13,522 nucleotides of DNA, taken from UHGV virus genome UHGV-0292061, one strand, 5' to 3'. Made by a program: the position numbers and the translations under genes. The notes below the pieces were generated by a model. That model had not been told where the DNA came from and did no database searches. It was given only the letters and a program-made list of their open reading frames with translations. The number at the start of each line of letters is the position of its first letter. Position 1 is the first letter of the stretch. This DNA is from a virus. Below are positions 12,358 to 12,561 of this stretch, piece by piece.

Positions 12358-12561
12358 TTACTGGCAGCGTCTGAATTTATTCCCGTACCCGCCGTTATCC
12401 TTCGCCAGCCCCGCCAGAACTAACTGAGTCAGTATTAACTGGCACCGGGCTTCGCTTACTCCGGTAGTTCTCGTCATCATGCGTGGCGTTACCCACTTGT
12501 CAGCAGGTAAGAAATGAAGGACTGCGGCGGCGGTTTCTGTCATATCTTGCTGTTTTAGCAT
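12358..12561 (-). CDS. Small hypothetical protein, possibly winged-helix DNA-binding (PapI/FaeA-like?)
   Basis: 67 aa if started at ATG 12561 (AGAAGGGA 8 nt upstream; alternative ATGs at 12585 and 12543). The segment VLHFLPADKWVTPRMMTRTTGVSEARCQLILTQLVLAGL has the look of a small HTH or winged-helix module. Family assignment is from memory and weak. Confidence 0.45.
   Translation of the reverse strand: MLKQQDMTETAAAVLHFLPADKWVTPRMMTRTTGVSEARCQLILTQLVLAGLAKDNGGYGNKFRRCQ

What the first reader, a model, noticed from the sequence alone, without database searches (positions are those of the whole stretch)
12358..12561. Small DNA-binding-like ORF just upstream of the orphan methyltransferase
A 61-67 aa ORF with a helix-turn-helix-like core lies co-directionally 150 bp upstream of the methyltransferase, after the cargo terminator. 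The arrangement recalls controller proteins of restriction-modification systems or small phage regulators, but the fold assignment is only my impression. The 150-bp spacer (12208-12357) contains a 7-bp-stem hairpin (12240-12259) without a U tract and no obvious Shine-Dalgarno sequence for the methyltransferase.
Basis: inference. Interest (0 to 1): 0.45.

Follow-up and report, generated by a model that had tools for sequence, protein, structure and literature searches.

The report
Small winged-helix gene beside phage methyltransferase
The small ORF is a real, conserved 67-residue winged-helix protein that travels with a toxic, non-specific phage DNA adenine methyltransferase (an M.EcoGII relative), and the "spacer" between them is a widely conserved, previously uncatalogued structured RNA leader that probably gates the methyltransferase.

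Summary

It is not an R-M controller (C) protein. The fold is not Xre-type, there is no restriction endonuclease, and the gene sits in the Q-dependent late operon.

The 150-nt spacer is the bigger result. It is a structured RNA with four helices (J, P1-P3), supported by heavy covariation, and absent from Rfam. It precedes this methyltransferase family in lambdoid, N15-like, Vibrio and Aeromonas phages: 161 of 200 distant loci.

The accessory gene varies. It is the winged-helix protein or its N15 gp51 homologue in 50 of 93 distinct leaders, a Mu Com-like zinc ribbon in 13, and absent in 30.

Best reading, at confidence about 0.4: the protein is a dispensable accessory regulator of methyltransferase expression that acts on the leader, working like Com/mom. 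Most family members are acidic, which weakens this reading.

The parts
12683..12708 (-). Intrinsic terminator (AAACCCGC-CACUGA-GCGGGUUU + U run). It is the tR'-like terminator between the moron ('cargo') ORF and the small-ORF cassette.
   Evidence: RNA fold -16.4 kcal/mol, z = -2.5. The hairpin plus T run is conserved at the same place downstream of Q in SfV (annotated there as a terminator), 1720a-02, phiP27, Hafnia, Morganella and Citrobacter phages.
12590..12621 (-). Conserved 5' flank of the small ORF: CTTGCTG-N11-(A/C)(A/C)AGAGTTAT(C/T)(T/G)GT(A/G)TG. Function unknown. Candidates are a weak promoter or operator of the small ORF, or the promoter of an antisense sRNA.
   Evidence: TTGCTG and AGAGTTA are invariant or nearly so in 58 non-redundant upstream regions from many genera. 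The element is absent from loci that lack the small ORF. It is not a good sigma-70 match (and reading).
12569..12574 (-). Shine-Dalgarno (AAGGGA) of the small ORF.
   Evidence: Read directly. A purine-rich AAGG/AGGG block is kept in the alignment.
12358..12561 (-). Small ORF of 67 aa: a stand-alone winged-helix protein (phrog_331; homologue of N15 gp51).
12351..12368 (-). P0 hairpin (GCUGCCA-GUAA-UGGCGGU) that spans the stop codon of the small ORF and is followed by UUUCCUGCUGUG. It looks like a terminator. In type-B alleles it is a strong terminator (GCCUUCAG..CUGAAGGC + U6).
   Evidence: Present in the MFE and centroid folds. An equivalent hairpin plus U run directly precedes the leader even in loci without the small ORF.
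12205..12347 (-). Structured leader RNA of the methyltransferase. Helices: J (12335-12331 with 12264-12260); P1 (12330-12319 with 12311-12300, loop UUGGUAG); P2 (12298-12293 with 12275-12270); P3 (12259-12253 with 12246-12240). A conserved single-stranded GAGCCUA lies at 12236-12230. The methyltransferase AUG at 12207 has no Shine-Dalgarno.
   Evidence: Covariance model R1 gives 165 bits, E=4e-46, and is the only strong hit in the window. Covariation: 11 pairs with double changes against 4.8+-1.3 in shuffles, 0/500, in 46 close relatives; 25 of 29 pairs in 60 distant sequences. No conserved peptide is encoded. No Rfam family matches.
12240..12259 (-). It is helix P3 of the leader.
11155..12207 (-). 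Beta-class N6-adenine DNA methyltransferase, an M.EcoGII-family orthologue (350 aa).
   Evidence: Pfam N6_N4_Mtase E=2.7e-42. 81% identity over the full length to M.EcoGII, whose sequence was taken from the supplement of PMC11551740.
11131..11147 (-). Intrinsic terminator between the methyltransferase and the holin.
   Evidence: Terminator scan. A terminator is annotated at the same place in SfV, N15 and phiKO2.

Best explanation
The ORF encodes a 67-residue stand-alone winged-helix protein. I read it as a dedicated but dispensable accessory regulator of the M.EcoGII-type methyltransferase cassette of temperate phages.

Shown:
- It is a real protein under purifying selection, and it has a winged-helix fold.
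- It or its N15 gp51 homologue sits next to a 'terminator - structured leader RNA - methyltransferase' unit in lambdoid and N15-like phages.
- In Vibrio and Aeromonas relatives of the same unit, the neighbouring small gene is instead a Mu Com-like zinc ribbon.

Inferred:
- The methyltransferase is toxic and must stay silent until late lytic growth. It is therefore guarded by tR', a second terminator (P0), and a leader that offers no Shine-Dalgarno.
- In E. coli-type sequences the leader can pair the nucleotides just 5' of the AUG with the conserved GGUCA..AAGCG strand (the OFF fold). This competes with helix P2 (the ON fold).
- The winged-helix protein binds the leader. The most likely site is the conserved P1 apical loop GUGUUGGUAGCAC, or the DNA that encodes it. 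Binding shifts this balance.
- It therefore works like Com on the mom mRNA of phage Mu, although it is not a Com family member.
For: Real protein: phrog_331 E=3e-26. Frame kept in 30 of 31 loci. Median dN/dS 0.19.

Linkage: the methyltransferase lies about 150 nt downstream in 8 of 8 phage records and 23 of 26 species-level genome loci, and the 3 exceptions are truncated remnants. Near-identical alleles of M.EcoGII itself carry the ORF and the leader.

Homology to N15/phiKO2/PY54 gp51, which lies just upstream of the late promoter, terminator, leader and methyltransferase: hhalign probability 95%, E=2.7e-8.

Leader: structured, with covariation, and found in 161 of 200 distant loci. The MFE fold pairs the region just 5' of the AUG.

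Com parallel: a Com-like zinc ribbon (PF10122, E=1.6e-6) sits between the leader and the methyltransferase in Aeromonas and Vibrio phages. It never occurs together with the winged-helix gene: 13 versus 50 of 93 distinct leaders.

P1 loop class tracks the accessory type. 28 of 29 adjacent winged-helix genes have the loop UGUUR..GCA, 21 of 21 gp51 genes have other loop classes, and Com-like genes have UGC..AACA or other loops.

Conserved Arg residues lie at the start of helix 3 (R39) and in the wing (R65), the usual nucleic-acid-contacting positions.

Literature: Com binds a hairpin next to the translation-inhibition structure of the mom mRNA (PMC6483171). com-like genes precede non-specific adenine methyltransferases in Mu-like prophages (PMC3299994). 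M.EcoGII is toxic and silent in the lysogen (PMC5778455).
Against: - No binding or expression data exist.
- The leader plus methyltransferase occur without any winged-helix or Com-like gene in 30 of 93 distant leaders and 9 of 47 close leader clusters. The protein is therefore not required for the unit.
- Most family members are acidic or neutral. Median pI is 5.6, and 65% are below 6.5. The window's protein, at pI 9.6, is atypical. This is unusual for a 7-kDa nucleic-acid binder.
- The gp51 branch has Glu residues in the presumed recognition helix.
- The winged-helix gene lies 5' of the leader, whereas Com-like genes lie 3' of it. In N15-like phages it is outside the late transcript altogether.
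- The link between P1 loop class and protein type could be shared descent of adjacent DNA.
- The OFF helix shows only weak covariation and is not evident in distant groups (reading).
- Allelic types A and B swap in front of 98%-identical methyltransferases and leaders.
Confidence: 0.4

Rival explanations
1. It is a conventional DNA-binding winged-helix transcription factor, C-protein-like in logic. It binds the conserved TTGCTG..AGAGTTAT element in front of its own gene, or DNA around the terminator and leader. In this way it autoregulates and/or represses read-through into the methyltransferase, possibly already in the lysogen. It would be expressed from its own weak promoter and terminated at P0.
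For: - Most winged-helix domains of this type (TrmB, IclR, MarR, Rrf2) bind DNA.
- NCBI names the type-B alleles 'TrmB family transcriptional regulator'.
- A strongly conserved non-coding element with an imperfect dyad (CTGG-N9-CCAG) travels with the ORF and is missing where the ORF is missing.
- The ORF is bracketed by two terminators.
- In N15-like phages the homologue is a separate unit next to the late promoter.
Against: - The element is a poor sigma-70 promoter and its dyad is weak and variable.
- The family is mostly acidic.
- No dimerisation element is evident in a 64-67-aa protein.
- Pfam scores are far below threshold: MarR_2 14 bits against 27, TrmB 12 against 25.6.
- The recognition helix is not conserved between the two branches of the family.
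Confidence: 0.22
2. It acts through protein contacts rather than nucleic acid. Options:
- an inhibitor or chaperone of the toxic methyltransferase (antitoxin-like);
- a factor that directs the methyltransferase to replicating phage DNA;
- a reader or shield of m6A-rich DNA against methylation-dependent (type IV) restriction.
For: - Acidic to neutral pI in most members.
- Winged helices also serve as protein-protein modules. The hits include the N-terminal dimerisation domains of O-methyltransferases and ESCRT-II EAP30.
- Prokaryotic winged-helix domains can sense 6mA (abstract of PMC11037411, seen).
- The small-upstream-gene plus toxic-enzyme layout resembles toxin-antitoxin pairs.
Against: - The variable half of the protein does not co-vary with the methyltransferase: types A and B sit in front of 98%-identical enzymes.
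- M.EcoGII works alone in vitro (PMC5778455).
- The methyltransferase exists without the protein in many phages.
Confidence: 0.2
3. It is an unrelated small late gene or moron (for example a host-takeover or exclusion factor) that merely occupies the permissive site downstream of pR'/tR'. It is linked to the methyltransferase only by position.
For: - The site downstream of pR' is a known moron and sRNA insertion hotspot (PMC4104026).
- Other genes, a 220-231-aa membrane protein among them, replace it in some loci.
- There is a weak PHROG similarity to the Ren-like exclusion protein, E=0.04.
- The alleles are mosaic and fast-evolving.
Against: - Linkage persists across lambdoid and N15-like phages of many genera despite rearrangement.
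- No intact copy was seen without the leader and methyltransferase.
- It is mutually exclusive with Com-like genes.
Confidence: 0.15

Closest known systems
Phage Mu com-mom operon (Com zinc-finger translational activator), and com-like genes upstream of non-specific adenine methyltransferases (hin1523, nma1821) in Mu-like prophages
   Same: A small gene (about 60-70 aa) sits next to a late, host-toxic DNA-modification gene used against restriction. The enzyme's translation start lies in structured RNA. The same methyltransferase family and leader as in this window carry a genuine Com-like zinc ribbon in Aeromonas and Vibrio phages (PMC6483171, PMC3299994).
   Different: The window's protein is a winged helix and has no CxxC...CxxC zinc ribbon. 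It lies 5' of the leader and does not overlap the enzyme's start. The leader is a 140-nt four-helix RNA rather than a simple hairpin plus translation-inhibition structure. RNA binding is untested.
Controller (C) proteins of type II restriction-modification systems (C.PvuII, C.AhdI, C.BamHI)
   Same: A small helix-turn-helix protein is encoded co-directionally upstream of a DNA-modification gene and is plausibly used to time its expression.
   Different: C proteins are Xre-type five-helix dimers that bind C-boxes and control an endonuclease. Here the fold is a winged helix, there is no endonuclease, no C-box was found, and the unit is part of a Q-antiterminated late operon.
N15 gp51 / phiKO2 gp51 / PY54 ORF59 (uncharacterised 68-78-aa proteins of telomere phages)
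   Same: They are homologous (hhalign probability 95%, E=2.7e-8) and lie next to the same leader-methyltransferase-holin unit.
   Different: About 24% identity. They lie upstream of the annotated late promoter and terminator, not inside the late transcript. Their helix-3 residues differ, and so do the P1 loop classes of their leaders.
Minimal winged-helix domains: Zalpha (ADAR1, PKZ, E3L), TrmBL2/TrmB, and the SelB winged helix that binds the SECIS RNA hairpin
   Different: Sequence identity is 7-24%. The best Foldseek E-value is only 4e-3. By my hand alignment on helix 3 and the wing, the Z-DNA-contacting Asn173/Tyr177/Trp195 correspond to Q41/T45/F63. No Pfam family threshold is reached.
M.EcoGII (non-specific adenine DNA/RNA methyltransferase of E. 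coli O104:H4 prophage)
   Same: The downstream enzyme is 81% identical over its full length and has the beta-class motif order. Alleles 97-100% identical to M.EcoGII carry the same small ORF (type B) and leader.
   Different: The published work treats the enzyme alone. The papers I read (PMC5778455 text searches; PMC11551740 supplement) do not describe the upstream ORF or the leader. The enzyme's non-specific activity was not tested here.

Membership tests
R-M controller (C) proteins | Xre-type HTH (Pfam HTH_3 / five-helix bundle) | tested here: not met
   No HTH_3 hit, and only sub-threshold MarR_2/TrmB hits. The AlphaFold2 topology is H-b-H-H-b-b, a winged helix.
R-M controller (C) proteins | Genetic linkage to a restriction endonuclease whose expression it controls | tested here: not met
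   The methyltransferase is followed by a terminator, holin, lysozyme and Rz. No endonuclease is present in the window or in annotated relatives.
R-M controller (C) proteins | C-box inverted-repeat operators upstream of the C gene | tested here: inconclusive
   A conserved element (TTGCTG..AGAGTTAT) lies upstream. Its dyad (CTGG-N9-CCAG) is weak and variable.
Winged-helix superfamily (MarR/TrmB/IclR-like clan) | Three-helix core plus beta-hairpin wing | tested here: met
Pfam MarR_2 / TrmB families | Score at or above the curated gathering threshold | tested here: not met
   MarR_2 14.0 bits against 27. TrmB 12.2 bits against 25.6.
Zalpha (Z-DNA/Z-RNA binding) domains | Conserved contact residues Asn173, Tyr177 and Trp195 (ADAR1 numbering) | tested here: not met
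Mu Com family (Zn_ribbon_Com, PF10122) | CxxC...CxxC zinc ribbon and a Pfam match | tested here: not met
   No such motif in the sequence and no PF10122 hit. By contrast ARM81ld_p55 hits PF10122 at E=1.6e-6.
Mu Com family (Zn_ribbon_Com, PF10122) | Binds the mRNA of the downstream modification gene and activates its translation | not testable with these tools
   Needs RNA-binding and reporter assays.
PHROG phrog_331 (unknown function) | Significant profile match | tested here: met
   E=3.1e-26, with residues 9-74 of the 75-aa form matching profile positions 35-98.
N15 gp51-like proteins | Profile-profile homology | tested here: met
   hhalign probability 95.2%, E=2.7e-8, 51 aligned columns.
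M.EcoGII family (for the downstream enzyme) | Full-length similarity with the beta-class motif order (DPPY ... FxGxG) | tested here: met
   81% identity over 349 aa. TDPPYF and FFMGSGST are conserved.
M.EcoGII family (for the downstream enzyme) | Sequence-non-specific adenine methylation | not testable with these tools
   Needs methylome or enzyme assays.
Any Rfam family (for the leader RNA) | Covariance-model match | tested here: not met
   Nothing in the spacer at E<=1. Nothing at gathering score in 20 diverse loci.

The most novel reading that the evidence does not exclude
The 140-nt leader is a new class of cis-regulatory RNA that gates a promiscuous anti-restriction methyltransferase. Its core is a three-way junction (J, P1, P2) followed by the P3 hairpin, with invariant junction nucleotides AUGGGCG, GGCCCA and GAGCCUA.

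The 67-aa winged-helix protein would then be an RNA-hairpin-binding translational regulator. It would be a fold-unrelated analogue of Mu Com that recognises the conserved P1 loop. Different phage lineages would plug in different small proteins (winged helix, gp51-type winged helix, Com zinc ribbon, or none) to read the same RNA.

Alternatively, the RNA itself senses a metabolite such as SAM or SAH, or senses its own methylation by the enzyme.
Probability: 0.25. Interest if true: 0.8.

Novelty: new variant of a known kind. Interest (0 to 1): 0.62.

Why it matters
M.EcoGII is a widely used reagent and the prototype of non-specific adenine methyltransferases. How phages keep such a toxic enzyme silent, and then switch it on to hypermethylate progeny DNA against restriction, is not known.

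This locus gives a concrete, testable control module:
- two terminators;
- a conserved structured leader found from E. coli to Vibrio and Aeromonas phages;
- interchangeable small accessory proteins.

If the winged-helix protein reads the leader, it would be a second, independent solution to the Com/mom problem, and a rare bacterial winged helix acting on mRNA.

The leader is also a candidate new RNA family, and the papers and databases I searched do not describe it.

The module is present in many Stx-converting phages, so it bears on the epigenetic state of Shiga-toxin phage DNA.

Tried and rejected
1. Small peptide in the spacer. The invariant AUG in AAAUGGGCGG opens reading frames of 3, 4, 7, 13, 16 or 33 codons, or frames with no stop, in different relatives. 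This is not a conserved peptide, so I rejected it.

2. Known RNA family. Rfam gave nothing in the spacer at E<=1 in the window, and nothing at gathering score in 20 loci. The only nearby hit is a sub-threshold STnc130 match on the opposite strand upstream of the ORF.

3. RNAalifold on MAFFT alignments. With close sequences it gave an alternative nesting (AUGGGC/GCUCAU). With divergent sequences it found only helix J, because the sequence-based alignment scrambles the hairpins. A covariance model was needed.

4. Zalpha membership. The fold match is good but the key residues are not kept.

6. Sigma-70 promoter in the conserved 5' element. The scan finds none there. The best -10 candidate, TAYNNG, lacks the -7 T.

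7. Literature searches. The RefSeq accession gave nothing. The leader sequence gave only irrelevant hits.

8. The anti-sRNA and Pas sRNA papers concern a neighbouring kind of site and do not mention this ORF or the methyltransferase.

Full report
**1. What is there**

The window is the late region of a lambdoid E. coli prophage, read on the minus strand. The gene order is:
- an IS5-truncated moron;
- a terminator;
- the small ORF;
- the methyltransferase;
- a terminator;
- a lambda-type holin, lysozyme and Rz;
- terminase, portal and head genes.

The finding's ORF is 12561..12358 on the minus strand and encodes 67 aa: MLKQQDMTETAAAVLHFLPADKWVTPRMMTRTTGVSEARCQLILTQLVLAGLAKDNGGYGNKFRRCQ. RefSeq annotates exactly this ORF as a hypothetical protein.

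The 67-aa start is the right one. It has a Shine-Dalgarno AAGGGA 7-8 nt upstream. MLKQQDMTE is conserved from E. coli to Morganella and Plesiomonas. The upstream ATG at 12585 lacks both features.

The spacer to the methyltransferase ATG (12207) is exactly 150 nt. No Shine-Dalgarno precedes the methyltransferase. The 'cargo terminator' is a sound intrinsic terminator at 12708-12683.

**2. The ORF is a real gene for a winged-helix protein**

- It matches phrog_331 (unknown function) at E=3e-26.
- It has more than 150 database relatives. Some are named 'TrmB family transcriptional regulator' by NCBI.
- The frame is intact in 30 of 31 diverse loci.
- Nei-Gojobori dN/dS over 1075 pairs has a median of 0.19 and is never above 1.
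- AlphaFold2 with a 28-sequence alignment gives pLDDT 87.6 and the topology H1-b1-H2-H3-b2-b3.
- No specific family is reached. The best Foldseek E-value is 4e-3. Pfam MarR_2 and TrmB are far below threshold. By hand alignment, the Z-DNA contact residues of Zalpha are not kept.

**3. The enzyme and the operon**

The downstream gene is 81% identical over its full length to M.EcoGII (sequence from the supplement of PMC11551740). M.EcoGII is the non-specific adenine methyltransferase that is toxic when expressed constitutively and silent in the O104:H4 lysogen (PMC5778455). Alleles 97-100% identical to M.EcoGII carry the same upstream ORF (type B) and spacer.

The following phages share one order: mEp460, SfV (orf47/orf48), cdtI, phiP27 (L23/L24), 1720a-02, many Stx2 phages, and Hafnia, Morganella and Citrobacter phages. 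The order is:
- Q antiterminator;
- promoter and terminator;
- optional moron;
- small ORF;
- a spacer of 138-153 nt;
- methyltransferase;
- stx genes or the holin.

The pair is therefore the first unit of the Q-dependent late operon. There is no endonuclease. Together with the fold, this rules out membership in the R-M controller (C) protein family. The logic of 'a small regulator next to a modification gene' remains possible.

**4. The spacer is a structured RNA, and this changes the picture**

The spacer is as conserved as the methyltransferase coding sequence, while the small ORF diverges much faster. In SfV, nucleotide identity to the window is 94.7% for the spacer, 98.1% for the methyltransferase and 61.9% for the ORF.

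The spacer encodes no conserved peptide and matches no Rfam family.

In 46 non-redundant close relatives, three hairpins are 85% paired. Eleven pairs show changes on both sides, against 4.8+-1.3 in shuffles (0/500). One P2 pair appears as C-G in 21 sequences, A-U in 10 and U-A in 9.

I then noticed that methyltransferases only 48-60% identical to the window's carry the same motif. These are in N15, phiKO2, PY54, VHML, other Vibrio phages, Aeromonas phiARM81ld and Serratia OS31.

A covariance model built from the close set gives these results:
- It hits the window once, at 12347-12205 on the minus strand, with 165 bits.
- It hits 161 of 200 loci fetched with the N15, VHML and phiARM81ld enzymes.
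- Every hit is on the coding strand and directly 5' of the methyltransferase, or 5' of a small ORF that precedes it.

On the model-fitted alignment of 60 distinct distant sequences:
- 25 of 29 pairs show double-sided changes, and 88.8% of cells are paired.
- The covariation score is 0.427, against 0.129 in shuffles and at most 0.088 with slid partners.
- The alignment is fitted to the model, which inflates these numbers somewhat. P1 pairs with four different Watson-Crick types are hard to explain otherwise.

The architecture in window coordinates is:
- helix J (UGGGC/GCCCA; 12335-12331 with 12264-12260), closing a junction with P1 and P2;
- P1 (12330-12319 with 12311-12300);
- P2 (12298-12293 with 12275-12270);
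- an invariant GAGCCUA, about 25 nt before an AUG that has no Shine-Dalgarno.

An intrinsic terminator hairpin plus U run always directly precedes the motif. It is tR' itself or, in this window, the P0 hairpin that spans the small ORF's stop codon.

In E. coli-type sequences the minimum-energy fold pairs GGUCA..AAGCG..AAC with GUU.CGCUU..UGAUC just 5' of the AUG. This competes with P2. It is a plausible ON/OFF switch, but covariation for the OFF helix is weak.

**5. How the small protein relates to the unit**

From the small-ORF side:
- 23 of 26 species-level genome loci and 8 of 8 phage records have the methyltransferase downstream.
- The three exceptions are truncated remnants.

From the leader side:
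- Among about 230 close hits, almost all have the ORF. About 9 loci have the leader and methyltransferase with a different gene or nothing upstream, and P0 is retained in them.
- Among 93 distinct distant leaders, the counts are:
  - 29 have an adjacent winged-helix gene.
  - 21 have a 75-aa gene (N15 gp51 type) upstream of the annotated late promoter.
  - 13 have a zinc-ribbon ORF between the leader and the methyltransferase, and none of these has a winged-helix gene.
  - 30 have neither.

The gp51 family is homologous to the window's protein (hhalign probability 95%, E=2.7e-8).

The zinc-ribbon ORF of Aeromonas phiARM81ld is annotated 'Com-like' and hits Pfam Zn_ribbon_Com.

The P1 apical loop falls into sequence classes that track the accessory type. 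UGUUR..GCA goes with 28 of 29 adjacent winged-helix genes. Adjacent DNA is inherited together, so this is suggestive only.

**6. Mechanism**

The closest worked-out system is Mu com-mom.
- Com is a 62-aa zinc finger encoded just upstream of the toxic late DNA-modification gene mom.
- It binds a hairpin next to a translation-inhibition structure and exposes the mom start (PMC6483171).
- com-like genes also precede non-specific adenine methyltransferases in Mu-like prophages (PMC3299994).

Three observations point the same way. The same leader and enzyme use a true Com-like protein in some lineages and the winged-helix protein in others, and the two are never combined. Winged helices can read RNA hairpins, as SelB does. 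I therefore commit to this reading: the 67-aa protein is an accessory regulator of methyltransferase expression that acts on the leader RNA (or on the DNA encoding it), working like Com.

I give it about 0.4 because the evidence against is real:
- A third of units need no accessory gene.
- The family is mostly acidic. Median pI is 5.6, against 9.6 for the window's protein.
- The gene lies 5' of the leader, and in N15-like phages it lies outside the late transcript.
- Alleles A and B swap in front of identical enzymes.

The rivals are:
- an ordinary DNA-binding autoregulator or repressor that uses the conserved TTGCTG..AGAGTTAT element (0.22);
- a protein-level partner, inhibitor or m6A-related factor (0.2);
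- an unrelated late gene (0.15).

**7. Novelty and verdict**

The ORF belongs to an uncharacterised but widespread phage family (phrog_331 and gp51).

The papers and databases I searched do not describe the leader. It is absent from Rfam. Text searches on its sequence and on the protein accession found nothing relevant. The M.EcoGII and anti-sRNA papers I read do not mention either element.

I rate the whole as a new variant of a known kind: Com/mom-like control of a toxic anti-restriction modification enzyme, built from a different protein fold and a new RNA. Interest is 0.62. It would be higher if the RNA proves to be a ligand- or protein-responsive switch.

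Noticed in passing
window 12205-12347 (-); also L236:1366-1503 (N15), L240:1362-1503 (PY54), L237:1321-1463 (VHML), L242:1229-1384 (Vibrio Val-yong3), L235:1228-1368 (Aeromonas phiARM81ld): The 'spacer' is one member of a widespread structured RNA motif that is not in Rfam. It lies upstream of M.EcoGII-family methyltransferases in lambdoid, telomere (N15-like), Vhml-like and Aeromonas phages. Covariation is strong.
   Followed up: yes
L242:1362-1478, L235:1362-1577, L328-L336: In Vibrio and Aeromonas phages a Com-like CxxC..CxxC zinc-ribbon ORF (36-71 aa) sits between the leader and the methyltransferase, and the winged-helix gene is absent. 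The arrangement is like Mu com-mom but with an M.EcoGII-type enzyme.
   Followed up: partly
window 12590-12621 (-): A strongly conserved non-coding element, CTTGCTG-N11-AGAGTTAT(C/T)(T/G)GT(A/G)TG, lies directly upstream of the small ORF in 58 non-redundant loci. It is absent where the ORF is absent. It is not a convincing sigma-70 promoter, and its role is unexplained.
   Followed up: partly
window 12580-12716 (+): A sub-threshold Rfam hit to the Salmonella sRNA STnc130 (30 bits against a gathering score of 55, E=0.067) lies on the strand opposite the late genes. It runs from just upstream of the small ORF to the bidirectional-looking terminator. Convergent sRNAs are known downstream of pR' at moron sites (PMC4104026).
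   Followed up: no
window 13387-13522 (+) and 12838-13401 (-): An IS5 end (100% identical to IS5 copies in 1781 records) begins at 13387. It truncates the N-terminus of the low-GC moron ORF (phrog_8498), which is 205 aa in intact relatives. Q and pR' are therefore cut off from this late region in the window.
   Followed up: partly
window 11131-11147 (-): A strong intrinsic terminator (GGCCACG-UUG-CGUGGCC + U run) lies between the methyltransferase stop and the holin. Terminators are annotated at the same place in SfV, N15 and phiKO2. The methyltransferase unit is therefore bracketed by terminators on both sides.
   Followed up: partly
small ORF alleles: window versus L002 (SfV); P0052, P0054: The small protein exists as mosaic alleles. 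The N-terminus (residues 1-11) and helix 3 are constant. Residues 12-36 and the wing come in at least two types, which recombine (P0052 and P0054 are B-type in the N-half and A-type in the tail). The two types occur in front of 98%-identical methyltransferases.
   Followed up: partly
L130:774-1466, L193:793-1455, L207:771-1466: In a few prophages a 220-231-aa predicted membrane protein replaces the small ORF between Q and the leader. Its function was not examined.
   Followed up: no
L236 (N15) 1501-1735: The annotated start of N15 gene 52 (locus position 1735) appears too far downstream. The tblastn match to the window enzyme and the covariance-model hit both place the start at about 1501.
   Followed up: no
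leader P1 apical loop, e.g. window 12312-12318: The sequence class of the P1 loop tracks the type of neighbouring accessory gene. UGUUR..GCA goes with the winged-helix gene. UUGCAGC or ..CACCAUG goes with gp51. UGC..AACA goes with Com-like genes or with none. This may mark a protein-binding loop, or it may only reflect shared descent.
   Followed up: partly
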